A stretch of 64,000 nucleotides of DNA from the human T2T-CHM13v2.0 reference genome, Homo sapiens, in assembly GCF_009914755.1 (NCBI RefSeq), contig NC_060926.1. One strand, given 5' to 3'. This document shows, piece by piece, positions 1,291 to 38,635 of the stretch. Within the stretch, counting starts at the first letter, position 1. The number at the start of each line of letters is the position of its first letter. The notes beneath the pieces were generated by a model. That model did not search any database and was not told the DNA's origin. It saw only the letters and a list, made by a program, of their open reading frames with translations. The position numbers and the translations under genes are program-made.

Positions 1291-2723
1291 CAAGTGAATA
1301 TTGACCTATTTAATCATTTAACAGGGAGGTGCACTCTTAGCTGGAGACAGGATGAGGAGACTGGCACTGATTCCTGCCTTAGGTAGGCATGGCAGTTTTC
1401 TGGGATGAAAAGGTAAAGAACAGAAGCACAGGGAACATTCTCTGGAAAGAAAACTGTTACGATATGTTTGTTCTTGAGGGACTCAAAATAGAAAATCCCT
1501 TTTCCTTTAAGAACACTTGCTGGAGGGGGTTGGGGGAGAGATAAAATTAAACATTGGCACAATGGTGCTGGAAGCCACTTTAGGAATAACTTCTATAACC
1601 TTTTTAGTAATTTTCCATGCTCCGGACAAAAAATTTTCTGTAACGTTCAGTTCTAAAAACAAATTGTCCTTTTTCTAAGAACTATGCAACATGCTCATTT
1701 CCACCTTTTTCCTTTCCTAATTTTAGAACAAAGCAAGCTGTTATTAGGTTGTCTTTTTGTATTTATCATGTAAAAAACTGCTGAAGGCTTTCTTGAAAAC
1801 TGAAATAAAAGAAATGTGGTATATTGTTTTCTTTTTCATTTTCCTTTTTCTTTTTTTGGTATGTGCATGTAAAGGTAAACATTTCAAATTGCCACAATAT
1901 AATTTAATTCCTCTCAAAGTCTGACAACGCCTTAATAACAACACATTATTCAAGGGCCTGTTTAAGGTTCCTGCCTCCATTTAACTTTTCATCTAAGTAT
2001 TTATCTATTGTACTTTATCCCAGATCCTATGATAATAAAAAATACACATCACTTTGCTTCTGATCTGTTAGGAACATGCTTCTTTCTATAAAGCCAGGAA
2101 AAGAGATTTTCTATTTTCACCTCCAGTCTGACACTCAAGACTCCAGACCCTATTCGGTACGACTGTCACTTCTGGTAAAGTACACTTGAACAAAGATTTA
2201 AAGCCAAATACTTTTTTAAATTATGTAGATTTCTGTTGGAGGAATAGACTTCTTATTCCTAAAAAATATATAGAAAGCATGAATATTAATTCAGAGATGA
2301 GTATGTTCTATTTCTAATAGGGCATGTTTTTGGTACTACCAGATGTTAGCATATTCTTAATTCAAATCATCAGGTTCAGTTACATCACCAGGAAGGGCTG
2401 CTGTATTCTTCCTGTATTTGAGCTATTAATAAAATATGTTCTTAATTTTAAAAATTGCTTGGCTTGGGTGTGGGGCATTACTGTGGGGAGTTGAAAATAC
2501 AGGAAAGCAAAGCAACATATTTGGACCACTGAGGTTTTCTAAGAAACACACTAAAATAAATTTCATATAATGTTAGAGCCATTTTCCCTTTAAACTCTAT
2601 GTTGTCTGTGATACAATACTGATTTAAATCTACTCATTAATCCTGATAGTGGCATTTTAATTAAAGGTATATAACAGGTTAATAAACCCAACATCATTTT
2701 AAATCCCTGAAAGAAAAAGAGAA

Positions 2724-28875: not shown

Positions 28876-29119
28876 TCTAGAGAATAATCCTTAGCCGCCC
28901 AACCAGCTCCTCAGCCTAATGAGTAGTTAAGTGTGCACCTTGACCTCCAGCTGGGTTCTTGAACTGGAAAAATAATCCAACATTTGTTCATCCTTTGGAA
29001 AACGAACTATTTGCCAAGAATCAGAAAACCATCACCAGAAAAAGGATAGTAATAGTGTATTCTCTCTTTTCTCTCTCTAGCTCCCTCTCTCTCTCTCTGT
29101 ATCACTGTCCCCTCCACAC

Positions 29120-29435
29120 TCACCCCGCCCCCACACATGCATCCCTCTCTCTGGCAAACAAAGAAACTGCAAACAAAGGAATAACTTGGCAAGTGCTGCT
29201 CTGTTTGAGAAAAACGAAGGGAGAGTTGCCCAGGCTAACTGAGTTCTCTCCACACCAACCAATCTTTTTGTTTTTCTCTCTCCATAAGATGTCTTTACGC
29301 TTTTCCACATTGGCTTAACCTCTACTTGTTGTCTGTGATTTTGCCCAAGTCCTGCGCTCACTATAAAGCCCTTCTTGGAAAGCAGGAGCCATGGACAATT
29401 ATGCTCCTTTGAACTTCTCAGTTCCTTTGAACTCG
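29120..29435 (+). promoter_or_regulatory. Candidate promoter/enhancer motif cluster
   Basis: GC box 29123-29131, GCAAACA x2, CCAAT 29259, MRE-like TGCGCTC 29353, TATAAAG 29362, STAT site TTCTTGGAA 29372, CCTTTGAAC x2 (29406, 29424); motif evidence only. Confidence 0.35.
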
Positions 29436-30259
29436 TCTCTCCCTCTCCCCTTAGAGCTTATCTTCTCAGCTCGATTCTAAGCTGTTTAAAGCAAGGAATG
29501 TGTTTATGTTCCGTTATAGCTTTTAAAATGTCTACCACGTAGTGGCATTTAGGAATTATTTGCTTTGTATTGTATTTTGAAGTCAACTAGTGTGATGCCT
29601 CCAGCTTTGTTCTTTTTGCTCAATATAGCTTTGGCTATTCCAGGTCTTTTGTGGTACCATACAAATTTTAGGATTTTTGAACATATATTTCCATGAAGAA
29701 TGTCATTGGTATTTTGATAGGGATGGTATTAAATCTGTAGATTGTTTTTGGGTAGTATGGACATTTTAATGATTTAATTCTTTCAATCCATGAACACAGA
29801 AAACCTTTTCACTGATTTATGTCTTCTTTAATTTCTTTCATCAATGTTTTATGGTTTTTGTTGTAGAGACCTTTTATCTCCTTGGTAAAGTTTATTCCTA
29901 ATTTTTTTGTAGCTATTGTAAATAAGACTTTTAAAATTTCTTTTTCAGAGAGTTTCCTCTTGATGTGTAAAAACATTTCTAAGTTTTGTATGCTGATTTG
30001 GTATCCTGAAACTTTATTGAGTTTATTATCTTGATCAAAAGAATAAAGCTGAAGGCATCACACTTCCTGACTTCAAAATATACTACAAAGCTATAGTAAC
30101 CAAAACAGTATGATGCTGGCATAAAAACAGACACGTAGACTAAAGGATCAATAGAAAGCCCATAAATAAACTCATGCATCTACATCCAAATCATTTTTGA
30201 CAAAGGTGCCAAGAATACACAATGAAGAAAGGACAGTCTCTTTAATAAATGGTTGTGAG

Positions 30260-30955
30260 CCAGTTAGAATGGTGATCATTAAAAAGTCAGGAAACAACAG
30301 GTGCTGGAGAGGATGTGGAGAAATAGGAACACTTTGACACTGTTGGTGGGACTGTAAACTAGTTCAACCATTGTGGAAGTCAGTGTAGCAATTCTTCAAG
30401 GATCTTGAACTAGAAATACCATTTGACCCAGCCATCCCATTAGTGGGTATATACCCAAAGGATTATAAATCATGCTGCTATAAAGACACATGTACACGTA
30501 TGTTTATTGTGGCACTATTCACAATAGCAAAGACTTGGAACCAACCCAAATGTCCATCAATGATAGACTGGATTAAGAAAATGTGGCTCATATACACCAT
30601 GGAATACCATGAAGCCATAAAAAAGGATGAGTTCATGTCCTCTGTAGGGACATGGATGAAGCTGGAAACCATCATTCTCAGCAAACTAACGCAAGGACAG
30701 AAAACCAAACACCACATGTTCTTATTCATAACTGGGAATTGAACAATGAGAATACTTGGACACAGGAAGGGGAACATCACACACCGGGGCCTATTGTGGG
30801 GTGGGGGAGGGGGGAGGGATAGCATTAGGAGATATACCTAATGTAAATGAGGAGTTAATGGGTGGAGCACACCAACATGGCACATATATACATATGTAAC
30901 AAACCTGCACATTGTGCACATGTACCCTAAAACTTAAAGTATAATTAAAAATATA
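30260..30955 (+). mobile_element. L1PA3-5-like 3' fragment with 16-bp TSD; carries ORF2p C-terminus (ORF 30443-30742)
   Basis: TSD aataaatggttgtgag at 30244-30259 and 30956-30971; translation 'YPKDYKSCCYKDTCTRMFIVALFTIAKTWNQPKCPS'. Confidence 0.97.
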
Positions 30956-31614
30956 AATAAATGGTTGTGAGAAAACTGGACATCATATGCAGAAGAATGA
31001 AATTAGACCCTTGTCTCACACCATATACAAAAGTTAACTTAGAATGGATTAAAGACTTAAATTTAAGAGCCAAAACTATAAACTTCTAGAATAAAACCTG
31101 TGAATATGGGCAACAACTTTGTGGATAAGACCTTAAAATCATAGGCAACAAAAGTGAAAATAAACAAACAGAATTACATCAAACTGAAAAAAAAAAAGTA
31201 TGCACAGCAAAAAAAAAAAAAATCAGTAGAGTGAAGAGACAACCTACAGAATGAGAGAAAATACATACATACATACATACCTCATAAAATACAAATTGCA
31301 TACATCAGATAAGGGGCTATTATCCAAAATATACAAAGAACCAAAACTACTCTATAACAAGGAAACAAATAACTCTATTAAAAAATAGGCAGAGAACTTG
31401 AAGAGACAGTTCTCAAAAGACATACAAATGGCCAACAGATATATGAAAAAGTGATCAACATTTCTAAGCATCAGAGAAATGAAAATAAAAATCATAATGA
31501 GATATCATTTTACCACTGTTAGAATGGCTATTATCAAAATGATGAAAGATAACAAGTAAAGATGTGGCTAAAAGGAAACCCGTATACACTGTTATTATTA
31601 GTGTAAATTAGTTA

Positions 31615-31793
<179 letters not shown>

Positions 31794-31962
31794 GAATTAT
31801 TACGTAATCCAGCAATGCCACTACTAGTTGTATACCCAAATGAATTGATATCAGTATGTTGAAAAGATATCTACTCTCCCATGTTCATTTCAGTCCTATT
31901 TACAATATCCAAGACATGGAAACAACCTAAGTATCCAACAATGGATGATTAGATTTTAAAAT

Positions 31963-31965
<3 letters not shown>

Positions 31966-32002
<37 letters not shown>

Positions 32003-32060
32003 TGTGTATAGATAGATACATAGAGAGAGAGAGATAGATAGACAGATAGATAGATAGAGA
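31966..32060. repeat. (TG)n followed by (GATA)n/(GA)n
   Basis: Directly visible. Confidence 0.95.
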
Positions 32061-32873
32061 GTATTCAGCCATTAAAAACAAAAACAGGAAATTCTTTCAT
32101 TTGCAACAACATGGATGAACCAAGAGGAGACTATGTTAAGTGAAATAGTGTCACAGAGAGACAGGGACAAAGAGACAAATAATGTATGATCTCAGTCATA
32201 CTTGATATCTGGAAGAGTTGACCTTATACAAGTAGAGAATAGAATGGTGGTTACTAGAGTCTGAGTGAGGTGTGGGGGAGGGTGACTGGGGAAAGAAGAG
32301 CTGTTGGTTTGTGAGTACAAAGTTACAATTGGGAGAAATAAGTTTTGAAGATCTTTTTGCACATTAGAGGGAATATAGTGATTAATAACATACTGTATAT
32401 TTTAAAATAGCTAAAAGAAAGGATTCTAAATGTTCTCACCACAAAGAAATGATAAATGTTTGAGATGCCAAATATGTTAATTATCCTGATTTGATTATTA
32501 AAAAAGTGTATCTGCATTGAAATGCATTGTACCCCATAAGTATATACAATTATTTGTCAATTAAAAATAAATTCTTAAAAAGTTATCTGCTGATAAAGAA
32601 GTTGCAGTTCTAACATTTACCCCAATCAACACTTTTCTTATAAACAGATTCCCAATTCCTATTCCCAGATGTGCCTAGCAGTGTTTCTGATATCTGTTAC
32701 TCTTAGGAGCACTGACCAGCTTCAGAGAAGGCAACTGCCTCTGTGGACCCAGGGAAGGAACAAGGGACTTGGAATGATTAAGAGCGGTAAGCTGTATGTT
32801 TCACACTGAGACAGAACATCAACACATAGCATCCCTAGGTTCTGAAATAGCCCTCACATACTCAGGTGTCTAT

Positions 32874-33278
32874 AGGGCGATAATATATTCCAATTTGTCT
32901 GGAACTGTCCCGGTTTTTCTCTTTTGTCTCAACGTGATTAGTTACAAAGACTTTCATGCTCAACATTGTCAGGTGTGGACATGACACATTGCTCCTGATG
33001 GAGGGGCTCCAGGCAGGCACCCCACATGGGTGAGGCTGGCAGGTGAGGGCTGTGGAGCTCTGGAGAGAGCATGGCAGGTCCAAAGAGGTTCCTGTCTATG
33101 ATTGCTACATGCAATTGTTGGGCCCGATGTTGTGAGATCTTTTTATGTTTTCAGAGAAGTCAAAAATTACACCTTCAAGTGTTGGGAACTAATTCTGTTA
33201 AAAGACTATTGTTTTGATTAAAAAAATTAAAAACTGTGAGGATCAGCTTTGGCTTAAAGGTGCTGGTTTAAAACTGTT
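32874..33278. mobile_element. hAT fragments: MER94/Blackjack-like end (about 32874-32920) and MER102-like (about 33000-33278)
   Basis: 'agggcgataatatattccaatttgtctggaactgtcccggtttt'; 'gggcccgatgttgtgagatctt...tcagagaagtc...gtgttgggaactaattc'. Confidence 0.6.
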
Positions 33279-33284
33279 CAGTAG

Positions 33285-33505
33285 AAAAATGAGATGACTA
33301 TACTTGACAATAATTGATTGTATTATTTTGAAATAGCTAGAAGACTTGGAATGTTCCCAGCACAAAAAAAAATGATAAATGTTTGAGGTGGTGAATATCC
33401 CAATTACCTAGCTTTGATCATTACACATTGTATGCTTTTATGAAAATGTCATATGCACCCCACAAATGTATACAATGATTAAATCCATATAAATTAAAAA
33501 TAAAT
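33285..33505 (+). mobile_element. L1MA5/6-like 3' terminus
   Basis: 'aaatgataaatgtttgaggtggtgaatatcccaattacc...gatcattacacattgtatgc'. Confidence 0.88.
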
Positions 33506-34749
33506 TTCAAAAATACCTTTTAAAAAGGTATTCTCTGTAAGGGACTACCTGGATCCTGGTCCTTCTACCCCTGAAGATGTCTCTCTATGAGCTTGGTTCA
33601 TTTTATTAAGGAAAAAATTAGGATTGGGGGTGGGTAAGAGGGTCTAAATCTTGGCTTTATTACTCACTAGCAGTGTAACCTCAGAAAAACAGTCACAAAC
33701 TTATGCTGTCTCATCTATAAAATAATAAACATGGGCTAGATGCCACCTAGATGCCTCTAAGCTCTAAGAGTCTGTAATTCTTTCATTCTGACCTTAACTC
33801 TTGCTTTTGTTTTGTCTAACACATTCATCATCCACGCTGAGAATCCTAAAAGGGTGTTAGTTATATTTTCTGTTCCTTAAAAATGAAATTTGTTCTCCTA
33901 TTCATTTCTCAGGTGTCTGGCTCCTAATAGATGTACTACTAATACTGATTACCAATAATTTTAGTACTGAGTAGTACTAAAATATCACCCTAAAGCAGAA
34001 TATATAACTCTATTAATTTTTAACCCAATAATTGAATGTCCTTCCCTTTGTATGTATTATTACTATTATTACAAATTACACATAGGCGAAAATTTGAAGA
34101 AAACATAACAACTTTTTACTGGATTTGTGTTAGCTAGTGAGATTATGGACTTTTCTTTCTACTTATCTGTTTTTCTAGTTTTTGGATTTTTTTTAATGTG
34201 ATTACATTGCTTTAATAGTAAAATTATTAAAATACTATTTTTAATAATAAAAATAATATATAAATGATCATCACAGATAAGTAAATAGAAAAAGTACCAT
34301 AAAGGACATGCAGCAAACTACAAATTCTAGTTACCTTGTTTGAGAGAAATGAGATTTAGGAGGGAGATATGAGCATGATAATTTAGTTCCCTACATACTT
34401 TTGTATTATTTGAAATTTTTATACAGAACATTTATTCATGCATTATTTATGAACTTAAAATGAATTAATCAAATTTTAAAATGAATTATTTACCTTGCGT
34501 TTAGAGGAACTGAGTCTTTCTTGATTGTAGATTGCTTTGTCAGTTTCCTGCCAAACAGAACCTTATGTGTCGGCCCCAGTTTCTACATCCTATGAAAGAC
34601 AGGCTGGGGAGGGTATGTGACTTGTCCAAGTAGTAAAGAATGTTGGAAACTGTGTCTGGGCTAAAATCCGGTACTTGCCTAAACTGAGTCTGCAGCATTT
34701 TTATTTGGCTTTTTAAAACATCTTTCTGAATTAGCATGCATTTGTGTTT

Positions 34750-35280
34750 TTAAAATCTTTGATTCCTTTCTGTCCTGAAGTCTACAAATCTTCCTCTAAT
34801 GTGACTGTAAGAGATAAGGGGAAAACATCAATTTCCTAACACTTTTGTTTAGAAAAGAACATACATGATTAAATAGATAATTATTATTATTTTTCCTTTT
34901 GGGGGGAAGGTACAGGGAATATAGATAACAGTTGGATTATTCTTTGAATATACATCATAATTTACTTCCTTACATAAATTCAACAGATCCATGTCTGTGT
35001 GAAGCAAAATACATAGGAAGTTTGTTGCTTGCCATTTGTCTCTCTTCAAGTCCAAAAGAGCCTAGCTGGAATTGCTCCTCCCAAAAGCAAACAGCGTTTT
35101 TTTTTTTCCGAAGCAGTCTGTTTCTTGCACAAATCTTTCCAAAAAGAGTCATCTATTGTTTCTTCCCTTGAAAGTTACAAAAGCATCTTTCTTAACCGCC
35201 ATATTTTTACCTTCAATGTAGAGCCAAAGATAAATCTTATTTGGAATATAATTTTTTCTTTGAAGACTATGCACTGCATT
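34750..35280 (-). mobile_element. Decayed LINE ORF2 N-terminus (APE endonuclease remnant)
   Basis: Collinear motifs WLYIEGKNMAVKK (35226-35188), FVQET (35133-35119, same frame), WEEQFQLGSF/WT, FLCILLHTDMD, NPTVIYIP. Confidence 0.6.
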
Positions 35281-35299
35281 TAGTCTGGGGAACTTGGAC

Positions 35300-36861
35300 A
35301 CTACCACGACTAAATCATAACTAGAAAGATTTGAAGAGTAGCAAAGATTTCTGGTTTTTTTTTCCTTAAAACAATAATCATGCTTGCATTTCTTTAACTT
35401 TCATCCTCAACATCAGGGCTTTTGGATCTTCAGTTTCTGTGAAACCTGTTGCTCCTCTGTCTACAAATGCAGTTTGGGCTTTGGCTTTTGCCTAGGTGAA
35501 ACTACTGATAAATATGTATCTAGTATTTGTTCATGGGAAGTTTCAATCTGCCCCTTGATTTATTTCCCTTGAAAACATCCTTCATCCTTCCCCTTATGCA
35601 ATCAGCCTTCACTAACACAATCCCACCTGGGCCTCCCAGAGACGTGGGACCCACATGTTTGACGGGTGAAGGCCTCTCCTGCCAATTTCCTGTGGCTACT
35701 TCTCTCCTTCCTCTCATTGTTCCTTTCTTCTCTTCCTTGTTCCTCCTCCTCCAGCTTCTACATCGAATCATCTCCAACGCTGCCTTCTTTTCTCATGTAC
35801 TTTCATGGGACTGCTTCATTATCTGGAACTGAATTCTCTGCCTGCTCTGTTTAAACTTGTTTTGAGTCTGGGACAGGTGAGGATGCCTCCAGCTCCTTAT
35901 CCTCTTCTTCTTGTCTCCAGCCCCAGGGCAAATGCTTCTCTTCTTTGCAAAGGTTGCACCATCCCCTCTGCCCACAATTGCTACCTTTGTGTTCAGAATC
36001 CAAGCACCTGAAACATCAGAGCAGGCTGCATGCCATGCTAATTTTGCCTGTGTGGATTAAGACATTATAATGATCCTGCGGCCGTGCCCTGTGACCTCCA
36101 CAGCCAAGGTTCTGCTCTGAAGCCATGGTCCAGTGGCATCAGAATAGCCCTACTTAAGAATAGGACACCAAAGGCATTTATAAACCCCCTTTCTGGACTC
36201 TACAATCTCTGATTCACATCTGAATTCTTCAGGGAGGAACACATAGCTATCCCTTAAATGTATACACAAAGCACGCTGATAATTAGAGTTTTCACTCTGT
36301 AATTTCAGTATAGGCTAGCGTCAGCTCATTTTGGATCCAATTGTTAAATTTGAAGGAATTTTATGAATCAGTTCATATAATGTTGGTAGCTTGAAATTGG
36401 CCATGGGGGGAGTGTTTACACTATTGAAGTTGGCAATTCCACTAACTAAGCCATTTTTTTTTTTTTTCTCCTGGAGAGACAATTATTAAACATTTACCAG
36501 TAGGCCAACGGCAGGGCTCTGATGAAAACTTGAGTGAAAAAAGAAACAAAGCAAAACAAAAATCACATAAAATGTGACAATTCAACTTTGTGAACATTTT
36601 CTGAGTCTTCTATCCAAACATCTTCAGGGACCTTACGAGACCCTGCTCTTTGGATGGGTTTTTCTTGATTTCTCTTTCTTCCTAATATCTGGTCTCTTCT
36701 GCTTCTAACATTTTAGCAAGAACAAGCACACAACCAAAAATAAAGTTACTAGCGATAGGTATGGAATATTGCCTTCTTTTTTCCATAGTTTATTTTCTAT
36801 TTTGCTTCTTCATCTTAGGGCTTCCATTACAGACAGTGGCTGAGGTTGACTGGGCTGCCAT
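35300..36861 (-). pseudogene. Decayed ZCCHC3-like / Tx1-clade ORF1p with CCHC zinc knuckles and acidic tail, interrupted by MER63A
   Basis: ATG in strong context at 36861 (MAAQST); SNFIFGCVLVLAKMLEAEETRY (36750-36685); DSYVFLPEEFRCESEIVESRKGV (36251-36183); CFRCLDSEHKGSNC-GQRGW-CNLCKEEKHLPWGW (36015-35917); multiple stops and frameshifts. Confidence 0.75.
36306..36510. mobile_element. MER63A (hAT-Blackjack)
   Basis: 'aattgttaaatttgaaggaatttt', 'gttggtagcttgaaattggccatgggggagtgtttacac', 'ttaaacatttaccag'. Confidence 0.88.
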
Positions 36862-37239
36862 AGTGTATCAGGAAAAATGATGTCATTGTCTGTAACTTGC
36901 CTATGACCCTGATTCTGCAGCTTGTCACCTCTCCCTTCAGATCTTCCAGTGTCTAGATGACAGATCTTTTCCCTGGCCATTTTCCAGAATTTCCACAGAA
37001 GCCTCTTCATTGCAATTTCATCACTCATACAGGTCATTTTGGGAGGCCTGGATTGAGCGAGAAATAATTCAAGGTGCTTTGACACCAAGAGATCGTGTCC
37101 TCAAAGAACCTTAATCAGTGGCACAACCAGGACTAGAACCCAGGTCTCCTGAAACCTGAACCTAGTATTCTCACTGACATACAGGCCTGCTTATTTTAAT
37201 GCTGACATACCTGTAATTCATTCTGCTTTAGTTTTCTTA

Positions 37240-37602
37240 AACTTAAACCAGGTGGTGATTAAAACCTTACTCAAAAAGTTCACACAAGAGAAAAGGAAAT
37301 GAGAATTTATTGGTTCACACCTGGACAGTCTTGATTCAAATTCTGAAGTAGCATTATCACAAATCTTTCTCTCCATCCCAAAATCTGCTTTCTTTCCTCC
37401 GCGTGTCCCTTCCTTTCTAACCAGGCTCCTCCTGTGTGATGGTAAACCTAGGAGCATCCAGCTCACATCCTACAGGTTGAGAAAGTCCAATAAAAACAAG
37501 CAAAAGGCTCTGGAAGGGTCTGCTTAGTCTGAAATATTAGGGTGCTGCAATCAAAGGCTGGAAAAGAAATAATGAACCGGCAAACACAACAGATGTCTGA
37601 TA
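37240..37602 (-). mobile_element. MLT1J/I-like MaLR LTR (MIR fragment just left, about 37085-37180)
   Basis: 'gaatttattggttcac', 'accaggctcctcctgtgtgatggtaa...ccagctcacatcc', 'caacagatgtc'. Confidence 0.55.
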
Positions 37603-38417
37603 GAGCCCCTAATGGGGAAGAAAGAAAAGTTACATCTGCCATTTACACTGTCTGTGATTGTGCATGGAGATGGCACTCAACGTGAGGAGTCCCACCATGT
37701 CTTCCAGCTTCCTGGAGCATGGGAAGCCAGACTGATAATTTCAGAGGTGACTCAATCAGCATAGTGAAAGCATTAATGTTGGCAGACAGAAAACTCATAT
37801 TCTCCCAGTTTCCTTGTGTCAGAGAAATCAAAAACAAATGGTAGCTTTCTTAACTCTTGACATTTTAGTTGAAAAATATTTCCTTCCAACTATCCTTTCT
37901 TTTCTTTTAATATCCCATTACCTCATTTTTTAACAATAATTTTGGTGGGAATGGACAAAACACCTGAGAGTGGCTCTAGGCCGACAGGATGATGAAAGAA
38001 ATGACACTGTGGGTCTCTCCTATTCCTAATTTCCATAACTTTTAAGAGCACAGGCTGCTGACACAAAATGATACAAGTAGGAAAGTTGCTTGGAGCACAA
38101 AAGTTCAATGCAACCAAAGACCTGATAGACTACCCCTGGCTCAGCCTGTCCCAAATCAGTATGTTTTCCATAATGTGATCTTTCATTTGGCTTCTTTTCT
38201 CAGTACTGAACTGCTTTCTCCTGTGTAATTTAAGCATCAAATATGTATCATGACCCACCCTGAAGCACTGTCTCCTTGGATGACAAAATAATTTAAAAAT
38301 AAATTGCATTGTAAAGAAAAAATATTGTTAAATAATGGGGTACCCTTGAATAATAGGATACCAAAATGTGGTGTGTACATGTGGAAATGTTATGTCTTAC
38401 TCAACGTGTGTAGAGCA

Positions 38418-38635
38418 CTAGTTTTCCTGAAAAGACTCCAGAATACACTAAATCAGGAACTCTGAGGGTGAAACCCAACACTGTGTGTTTTAACAAGACC
38501 TCTAGCTGATGCAAGCTAAGGTTCCAGACCCACTGGGTTTTATTTTTAACTTTCCTAAGCTTCAATGTCATTGTCTATAACATGTGAGTAGCACCTAATT
38601 TTCAGGGTTTTCATAAAGATTAAATTTGACCAAAA
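38418..38635. mobile_element. MER5A fragment plus MIR fragment
   Basis: 'aactctgagggtgaaacccaacactgtgtgttttaacaag'; 'cttcaatgtcattgtctataa...aagattaaat'. Confidence 0.65.

What the first reader, a model, noticed from the sequence alone, without database searches (positions are those of the whole stretch)
34750..36861. Fossil Tx1-clade LINE (zinc-knuckle ORF1 followed by APE ORF2) in a primate genome
Seen: about 2.1 kb on the minus strand with no match to common repeats apart from one MER63A. It reads as a two-ORF element: ATG in strong context (actATGG, 36861), a stop-riddled ORF1 of roughly 450 codons ending in CCHC knuckles and an acidic tail, then directly downstream the ordered N-terminal motifs of an APE endonuclease. 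Established: mammalian L1 ORF1p (coiled coil-RRM-CTD) has no CCHC knuckles, whereas Tx1-clade LINEs of fish, amphibians and reptiles do. Inference: this is the 5' portion of an ancient Tx1-like retrotransposon, a clade not known to be active in placental mammals. 5' ends of such old LINEs are rarely preserved. The ORF track misses it because of stops and frameshifts.
Basis: partly seen in the sequence, partly recalled or inferred. Interest (0 to 1): 0.92.

Follow-up and report, generated by a model that had tools for sequence, protein, structure and literature searches.

The report
Decayed ZCCHC3-like zinc-knuckle gene relic
This stretch of human chromosome 2 holds the broken tail end of an ancient zinc-knuckle RNA-binding gene related to ZCCHC3, but the claimed endonuclease and the Tx1 LINE identity could not be shown.

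Summary
The zinc knuckles are real. On the minus strand, 36015-35974 is a perfect CX2CX4HX4C. Five residues later comes a second knuckle with its last Cys changed to Trp, then an acidic tail and a TAA stop. Such a tandem arose in 0 of 300 simulated windows.

The pair matches knuckles 2-3 of human ZCCHC3 with identical spacing. The frameshift-aware score was 74 against a null of 33.5 +/- 4.6, with 0 of 216 chunks reaching it. ZCCHC3 also beat 30 strong zf-CCHC loci of the genome.

- **APE domain:** Pfam, PDB, the protein databases and a frameshift-aware L1 endonuclease profile found nothing (score 32; 41% of null chunks score as high).
- **Reverse transcriptase:** none was found.
- **ORF1 upstream of 36300, including the ATG at 36861:** it adds nothing to the ZCCHC3 alignment.

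The missing first RNA-binding domain lies 34 kb away, at 1553-1785 on the plus strand. One ancient inversion would explain this, but that is unproven.

The genome holds at least 16 similar dispersed relics. Tx1 traces in the human genome are already published. The result is a real but ordinary fossil. The clade is unassigned, and an origin from a LINE ORF1 versus ZCCHC3 retrocopies remains open.

The parts
35917..36042 (-). Knuckle block. It holds the last Cys of a decayed knuckle 1, a TGA where ZCCHC3 has Arg, the perfect knuckle CFRCLDSEHKGSNC, the spacer GQRGW, and the knuckle CNLCKEEKHLPWGW (last Cys changed to Trp).
   Evidence: tblastn E=0.015, the best hit of ZCCHC3 in the whole window; score 63 against a null maximum of 42, n=216; ZCCHC3 66, next best CNBP 48; tandem in 0 of 300 simulations.
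35851..35916 (-). Acidic C-terminal tail (RQEEEDKELEASSPVPDSKQV) and TAA stop, 22 residues after the last knuckle. ZCCHC3 ends at a similar distance.
36183..36272 (-). Possible end of the second RNA-binding domain: ALCIHLRDSYVFLPEEFRCESEIVESRKGV against ZCCHC3 281-310. It is colinear with the knuckles but not significant alone.
   Evidence: E=7.9; score 40; 11 of 216 null chunks reach it; no PF23058 hit.
36313..36512 (.). It is not part of the relic.
1553..1785 (+). Relic of the ZCCHC3-type first RNA-binding domain and the start of the second (ZCCHC3 residues 185-265). It lies outside the finding and is the complementary half of the same kind of ORF.
   Evidence: score 60; PF23057 is the top Pfam family, E=0.015, 15.9 bits, below the cut-off of 27; 58 against relic L008 and 47 against ZCCHC3; clean null 26.4 +/- 3.7, maximum 44, n=198.
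34750..35850 (-). No support was found, and its nature is unknown (purine-rich, then AT-rich DNA).
36513..36861 (-). The stretch read as the N-terminal part of ORF1, with its ATG. No support was found.
   Evidence: score stays 74 with the repeat removed; best upstream score 36, equal to the 90th percentile of the null; 0 Pfam families.

Best explanation
Window 36300-35851 (minus strand) is the decayed C-terminal half of an ORF of the ZCCHC3 family. It holds a faint end of the second RNA-binding domain, the remains of three CCHC knuckles, an acidic tail and a stop.

When intact, such a protein would bind and chaperone RNA through two RNA-binding domains and the knuckles, as ZCCHC3 and type-I LINE ORF1 proteins do. 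This is inferred from the domain architecture. Today it is dead DNA.

It is one of at least 16 similarly decayed, dispersed relics in the human genome. That pattern points to copying through RNA. The source could be an extinct non-LTR element whose ORF1 was of this type, or very old retrocopies of ZCCHC3 itself. My evidence does not decide between these two.

The locus does not demonstrably carry an endonuclease, a reverse transcriptase or the N-terminal half of the ORF. The matching N-terminal half lies at 1553-1785 on the plus strand. The simplest account is one inversion of about 34.5 kb, with breakpoints near 1.8 kb and 36.3 kb. This last step is inferred, not shown.
For: - **Knuckle tandem is not chance:**
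- **ZCCHC3 residues 281-380 align colinearly across two frameshifts:** score 74 against a null of 33.5 +/- 4.6, maximum 60, 0 of 216 chunks, Gumbel p about 7e-6 per chunk.
- **Same spacing and shared non-ligand residues:** the knuckle-5 aa-knuckle spacing is identical, and CFRC and CNLC are shared.
- **ZCCHC3 is the best match among the loci compared:** of 40 loci tested (ZCCHC3, 9 relics, 30 top zf-CCHC loci), ZCCHC3 scores 66 and the next best 48. A knuckle-bearing relic on chromosome 4 fetched later scores 67 and shares 'CF.CL[DE]' and the TGA at the Arg position.
- **A dispersed family exists:** 13 PF23057 matches; 29 places match ZCCHC3 160-403, 16 of them at E<0.05 besides the gene, nearly all with stops.
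- **The half at 1553-1785 is real:**
- **The two halves fit together:** rejoined in silico they align to ZCCHC3 185-380 without overlap or large loss, score 115.
Against: - Pfam's zf-CCHC, PF23057 and PF23058 models do not reach E<=10 on the 36-kb piece. The only hit is Znf_SCAND3 at E=0.037.
- Genome-wide scans with PF23057, PF23058 and ZCCHC3 did not list either piece of this window. Their first look scores few candidates.
- The RBD2 piece alone is not significant (11 of 216 null chunks reach its score).
- The piece at 1553-1785 scores 60, which as the maximum of 216 chunks has p of about 0.08. Its Pfam score is below the curated cut-off.
- No repeat or other mark was found at the proposed breakpoints, and no outgroup genome was available.
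Confidence: 0.55

Rival explanations
1. One reading: the 5' portion of a Tx1-clade LINE, with a type-I ORF1 (36861-35851) directly followed by the APE domain of ORF2 (35850-34750).
For: - The CCHC ORF end is real and ZCCHC3-like.
- Type-I ORF1p (RRM plus CCHC) is described for Tx1-like L1 elements of fish and amphibians (PMC5203782, passages).
- L1-Tx1 protein fossils do exist in human DNA (PMC9004415).
- The ESM Atlas neighbours of ZCCHC3's RNA-binding part include arthropod clusters with RRM_1, zf-CCHC, PRE_C2HC and DUF4780 (scores 0.84-0.92, a lead only). My memory that such domains sit in insect non-LTR ORF1 proteins is recall, not a test.
- By eye, frame f1 of 35792-35523 can be read as SW..R / WQE / GGIVLVK / IHIY.
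Against: - No Exo_endo_phos, Exo_endo_phos_2 or RVT hit in whole frames, 19 ORF pieces or 104 sliding windows covering 29000-37100.
- No PDB hit at E<=10, although L1 endonuclease structures are, from my recall, in the PDB.
- 85 database candidates, none at E<=10.
- No paralogue in the genome.
- L1 endonuclease profile with frameshifts: score 32, reached by 41% of 176 null chunks.
- The upstream ORF1 part is unsupported.
- Seven other ZCCHC3-like relics show no APE or RT within 1.5 kb.
- No fused ZCCHC3-like plus APE/RT protein was found among longer proteins.
- A CCHC ORF1 is not specific to Tx1.
Confidence: 0.15
2. A very old processed pseudogene, or a DNA-level paralogue, of the host gene ZCCHC3 rather than a transposon ORF.
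For: - ZCCHC3 appears intronless here: a single 478-codon open frame holds the whole CDS.
- The relics are dispersed and riddled with stops, like retrocopies.
- No ORF2 was found next to any relic examined.
- The tail after the last knuckle has the same length as in ZCCHC3.
Against: - Identity to ZCCHC3 is only about 29-35% here. Two relic-to-relic comparisons score as high as or higher than relic-to-gene: 58 against 47 for the RBD1 piece, and 67 against 66 for the knuckles. Independent decayed copies of a conserved gene would not be expected to do this. The margin is small.
- No poly(A) tail or target-site duplication was looked for.
Confidence: 0.25
3. An LTR-retrotransposon or retroviral Gag nucleocapsid relic.
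For: Two CCHC knuckles near the end of an ORF are typical of nucleocapsid proteins. The ZCCHC3 profile itself hits retroviral NC chains in the PDB through the knuckles.
Against: - No protease, RT, RNase H or integrase hit downstream.
- Gag-type loci among the 30 best zf-CCHC loci score 45 or less against the fossil, compared with 66 for ZCCHC3.
- Their inter-knuckle spacing differs (alignments).
Confidence: 0.03
4. A chance pattern in purine-rich DNA.
For: The surrounding DNA is GA-rich and poor in stops on both strands: ORFs of 90-113 codons occur on both strands. A single perfect knuckle occurs in 11% of simulated windows.
Against: The tandem occurred in 0 of 300 simulations. The ZCCHC3 score lies far outside the null.
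Confidence: 0.02

Closest known systems
Human ZCCHC3 (PF23057 RBD_ZCCHC3_1st, PF23058 RBD_ZCCHC3_2nd, three zf-CCHC knuckles). [quoted passage not shown]
   Same: The order of parts is the same. The knuckle-5 residues-knuckle spacing is identical, and the CFRC and CNLC cores are shared. The ORF ends about 22 residues after the last knuckle. An RBD1-like piece is present in the window.
   Different: Identity is only about 29-35%. The relic has stops and frameshifts, and knuckle 1 is almost erased. RBD2 is barely visible. The two halves lie 34 kb apart on opposite strands. It is not a functional gene.
The other decayed ZCCHC3-like relics of the human genome, for example G000 C8:21653438, C11:10422975, C4:116582288 and C7:146713108.
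   Same: The same domains, the same kind of decay, and a dispersed distribution. The chromosome 4 relic shares CF.CL[DE] and the TGA at the Arg codon before knuckle 2.
   Different: Those relics are closer to ZCCHC3 (27-58% identity, E down to 8e-13) and were found by genome-wide scans. This one was not.
L1-Tx1 fossils of the human genome: MARE6 (PMC5753468) and 12 pre-amniote pol fossils (PMC9004415).
   Same: Ancient, single-copy-like protein fossils in gene-poor regions.
   Different: The published fossils are pol (ORF2) matches. Here no ORF2 part can be shown, so membership is untested.
HAL1, an ORF1-only derivative of L1 (PMC5753468, passage read).
   Same: It would explain relics that carry an ORF1-like gene but no ORF2.
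   Different: HAL1 encodes the mammalian type-II ORF1p (coiled coil, RRM, CTD) and has no knuckles. This is an analogy only.

Membership tests
Tx1-clade (L1-Tx1) non-LTR retrotransposon | A reverse transcriptase that groups with Tx1 in an RT phylogeny. | tested here: not met
   No RVT family in 104 sliding windows of all three minus frames across 29000-37100, nor in whole frames of 33500-37500. With no RT there can be no phylogeny.
Tx1-clade (L1-Tx1) non-LTR retrotransposon | An APE-type endonuclease at the N-terminus of ORF2, downstream of ORF1. | tested here: not met
   Pfam, PDB, protein database, own genome and a frameshift-aware L1 endonuclease profile at chance level. The profile was built from L1 only, so its power against a Tx1 endonuclease is limited.
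Tx1-clade (L1-Tx1) non-LTR retrotransposon | A type-I ORF1 (RNA-binding domain plus CCHC knuckles). | tested here: inconclusive
   The knuckles are met. The RNA-binding domain at the locus is not significant. The feature is shared with other clades.
Tx1-clade (L1-Tx1) non-LTR retrotransposon | Sequence similarity to Tx1 ORF1 or ORF2 peptides (Repbase/RepeatPeps). | not testable with these tools
   No Tx1 peptide or Dfam model was reachable. The searches returned none.
ZCCHC3 family | Three C-terminal CCHC knuckles with ZCCHC3 spacing. | tested here: met
   Knuckles 2 and 3 have identical spacing and shared cores. Only the last Cys of knuckle 1 is left, at the right distance.
ZCCHC3 family | RBD_ZCCHC3_2nd (PF23058) before the knuckles. 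| tested here: inconclusive
   A colinear 30-residue match scores 40, reached by 11 of 216 null chunks. No Pfam hit.
ZCCHC3 family | RBD_ZCCHC3_1st (PF23057) upstream in the same ORF. | tested here: not met
   Nothing upstream at 36513-37600. A PF23057-like relic exists at 1553-1785 on the plus strand, 34 kb away.
Pfam zf-CCHC (PF00098) | A match to the family model over its cut-off. | tested here: not met
   No PF00098 hit at E<=10, although the CX2CX4HX4C pattern is perfect. It works like a knuckle, but the model does not call it.
LTR-retroelement Gag nucleocapsid | pol domains or LTRs next to the knuckles. | tested here: not met
   No such Pfam families. Knuckle similarity is lower than to ZCCHC3. 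LTRs were not searched for.

The most novel reading that the evidence does not exclude
The 1.5-kb (+) and 36-kb (-) pieces are the two halves of one ORF, torn apart by an ancient inversion of about 34.5 kb. This ORF, together with the 16 or more dispersed relics, is the remains of an extinct retroelement family with a type-I ORF1, from which the LINE-1 restriction factor ZCCHC3 was itself domesticated. The host would then be fighting L1 with a captured LINE ORF1.
Probability: 0.25. Interest if true: 0.6.

Novelty: new member of a known kind. Interest (0 to 1): 0.3.

Why it matters
As claimed, a Tx1 LINE with a preserved 5' end in a primate would have been a rare find. The evidence supports only a zinc-knuckle ORF relic, and Tx1 traces in human DNA are already published.

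Two things remain of modest value. First, the human genome carries a small dispersed family of decayed ZCCHC3-like ORFs. This bears on where ZCCHC3, an antiviral and anti-L1 factor, came from. In four literature searches I found no paper that discusses a LINE ORF1 origin of ZCCHC3 or these relics. Second, two complementary halves on opposite strands may mark an old inversion in a gene desert.

Tried and rejected
- **Rfam on 33000-38500:** nothing.
- **DNA copies of 35500-36300 in the genome:** only itself.
- **Fossil knuckle peptide against the genome:** only itself below E=0.3.
- **PDB with frame f1 of 36314-35854:** nothing. This was the wrong frame for the knuckles.
- **ESM Atlas on the 90-codon open frame:** no usable hit.
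- **PF03372 over the genome:** 150 of 16,496 candidates scored. By their uniform ~660-bp matches they look like L1 copies (not checked). The window was not among them.
- **Representative search with the L1 endonuclease:** 41,382 hits, but the 150 returned were all close matches to the L1 endonuclease (46-98% identity), mostly fragments. No Tx1-type profile could be built from them.
- **ZCCHC3 against longer proteins:** only one Medicago LTR polyprotein, through its knuckles.
- **ZCCHC3 against proteins of near length:** 66 hits, of which 65 are mammalian orthologues.
- **Downstream 6 kb of seven relics:**
It was not repeated.
  - tblastx among them showed only hits at inconsistent positions that I took for common repeats.
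- **Repeats at the proposed breakpoints:** none found, and the repeat at 36313-36512 has no second part near 1.8 kb.
- **Weak ZCCHC3 174-201 look-alike at 37116-37027 (minus):** score 36, equal to the 90th percentile of the null, and no Pfam hit.
- **ZCCHC3 profile against the PDB:** only knuckle proteins.
  - Structure prediction of the ZCCHC3 RNA-binding part was not available.
They may list all human protein fossils, so I could not check whether this locus is already listed there.

Full report
**What is there**

On the minus strand the frame starting at 36015 reads CFRCLDSEHKGSNC, a perfect CX2CX4HX4C knuckle. It continues with GQRGW and then CNLCKEEKHLPWGW, a second knuckle whose last ligand is TGG instead of TGY. 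After that comes RQEEEDKELEASSPVPDSKQV and a TAA stop at 35853-35851.

This is the only perfect knuckle in the six frames of the 64-kb window. First-order Markov copies of the window carry 0.113 on average. None of 300 copies carried a knuckle followed by a second CX2CX4H. So the core observation is real and is not chance.

**What it resembles**

Pfam does not call it:
- Three whole frames gave nothing.
- 19 stop-to-stop pieces gave only Znf_SCAND3 at E=0.037 and IBR at 0.15 on the knuckle piece.
- 104 sliding 150-residue windows over 29000-37100 gave only scattered unrelated sub-threshold matches.

The Pfam family RBD_ZCCHC3_1st led me to the ZCCHC3 gene of the same genome. A tblastn of its 403-residue protein against the window puts its best hit exactly on the knuckles, at E=0.015. 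MSGSCTQDRCFRCGEEGHLSPYCRKGIVCNLCGKRGH aligns with ISMACSLL*CFRCLDSEHKGSNCGQRGWCNLCKEEKH, with the same spacing. A weaker colinear hit lies upstream: EYKCEIELRQGEGGV against EFRCESEIVESRKGV.

I then wrote a frameshift-aware local aligner. Scores against 216 control chunks of 1100 nt of human DNA were:

| Query | Score on the fossil | Null |
|---|---|---|
| ZCCHC3 160-403 | 74 | 33.5 +/- 4.6, maximum 60, none reaching 74 |
| Knuckles alone | 63 | maximum 42 |
| RNA-binding part alone | 40 | reached by 11 of 216 |

The fossil's knuckle peptide scores 66 on ZCCHC3. It scores 48 on CNBP and 45 or less on the other 29 strongest zf-CCHC loci of the genome, including gag-like ones. The relic is therefore specifically ZCCHC3-like, not just any knuckle protein.

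**The endonuclease**

By eye I could also read APE-like motifs in the 90-codon open frame 35792-35523. The motif names come from my memory. No test supports them:
- No Exo_endo_phos family at E<=10.
- No PDB chain at E<=10.
- 85 word-sharing candidates in 5.8 billion proteins, none at E<=10.
- No usable ESM Atlas hit.
- No paralogue in the genome.

I also built a 224-position L1 endonuclease profile from an intact human L1 and 150 database fragments. Aligned with frameshifts to 35850-34750, it scores 32. Control chunks average 31.1 +/- 4.3, and 41% reach 32.

Its best local match (IKGQIETSHEQILDTY) uses a different frame over the same bases that I had read by eye as GRLKL..IHIYQ. This shows how easily such motifs are read into the DNA. 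The profile is L1-only, so a very decayed Tx1 endonuclease cannot be excluded. No reverse transcriptase was seen down to 29000.

**The upstream part**

36313-36512 is indeed an interspersed repeat. The 1100 nt upstream score 36, which equals the 90th percentile of the null, and have no Pfam family. The ATG at 36861 has a good context, but its frame closes after 25 codons. From 36861 to the stop is 337 codons, not about 450.

**An unexpected second piece**

The highest-scoring 'control' chunk turned out to be window 1553-1785 on the plus strand. It aligns with ZCCHC3 185-265, the first RNA-binding domain (score 60).
- PF23057 is its top Pfam family, at E=0.015 and 15.9 bits. This is below the curated cut-off of 27.
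- Its peptide scores 58 on an independent relic (L008), 47 on ZCCHC3, 43 on L009 and 41 on L015. The clean null is 26.4 +/- 3.7, maximum 44, n=198.

This piece covers family positions 185-265, and the 36-kb piece covers 281-380. The two lie on opposite strands, with the geometry expected if the segment between about 1.8 kb and 36.3 kb had been inverted. Rejoined in a script, they align colinearly with a score of 115.

With roughly 20 detectable relics in 3.1 Gb, two unrelated ones within 35 kb would be very unlikely. Either one ORF was split by an inversion, or there was a local pair. I found no breakpoint mark and had no outgroup genome, so this remains a hypothesis.

**The family**

ZCCHC3 160-403 finds 29 places in the genome. 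Sixteen of them, besides the gene, have E<0.05. They lie on many chromosomes and almost all contain stops.
- Seven relics examined show only PF23057 and no APE or RT within 1.5 kb.
- No longer protein combining this ORF with APE/RT was found.
- The near-length search returned only mammalian orthologues plus one distant protein.
- ESM Atlas neighbours of the RNA-binding part are arthropod clusters, some carrying RRM_1, zf-CCHC, PRE_C2HC or DUF4780. This is only a lead toward non-LTR ORF1 proteins.

Whether the relics come from an extinct retroelement or from old ZCCHC3 retrocopies is open. Two relic-to-relic scores equal or exceed the relic-to-gene scores (58 against 47, and 67 against 66). This leans slightly toward a separate source.

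**Literature**

- Kojima 2018 (PMC5753468, passages read) lists Tx1 (MARE6) among the ten LINE clades with traces in the human genome.
- Frith 2022 (PMC9004415, passages read) reports 12 pre-amniote L1-Tx1 protein fossils in human that RepeatMasker missed. Its supplements were closed, so I could not see whether this locus is listed.
- Ivancevic 2016 (PMC5203782, passages read) describes type-I ORF1p, and cites work showing that CR1 and L2 carry every ORF1 type.
- None of the papers listed in four searches combines ZCCHC3 with Tx1 or a LINE ORF1 origin.
- The one listed paper with 'Zcchc3/Mart3' gives an accession that I recall belongs to another gene.

**Verdict**

This is a real, very old, dead relic of a ZCCHC3-type zinc-knuckle ORF. 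The Tx1 LINE reading, the APE domain and the 5' end are not supported, and the novelty claim does not hold. Interest is modest.

Noticed in passing
window 1553-1785 (+): A relic of the ZCCHC3-type first RNA-binding domain. It is complementary to the knuckle relic at 36 kb and lies on the other strand. One ORF may have been split by an inversion of about 34.5 kb.
   Followed up: yes
G000 C8:21653438, C11:10422975, C12:79314723, C3:120780750, C7:146713108, C4:116582288, C12:67673827 and others: The human genome holds at least 16 dispersed, stop-riddled ZCCHC3-like relics, 23-57% identical to the gene. Whether they come from a transposon or from retrocopies is unknown.
   Followed up: partly
window about 29400-30150 (-): The translation shows a decayed piece that I recognise from memory as L1 ORF2 (for example GINFTKEIKGLYNKNHKTLMKEIKEDINQ). 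It is unrelated to the finding. The weak Pfam hits there (PTRF_SDPR, DUF592) look like chance.
   Followed up: no
window 35500-36100, both strands: Purine-rich on the minus strand. Stop-free frames of 90-113 codons occur on both strands, so long open frames here carry no weight.
   Followed up: partly
window 37116-37027 (-): IISRSIQASQNDLY resembles the ZCCHC3-family motif LILRSIGMDPSDIY, but its score is at the 90th percentile of the null and there is no Pfam hit.
   Followed up: yes
window 35853-36042 and L088 (C4:116582100-116582900): Both relics have TGA where ZCCHC3 has the Arg codon just before knuckle 2. This would fit parallel CGA-to-TGA decay at a CpG, but I did not read the gene's codon.
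   Followed up: no
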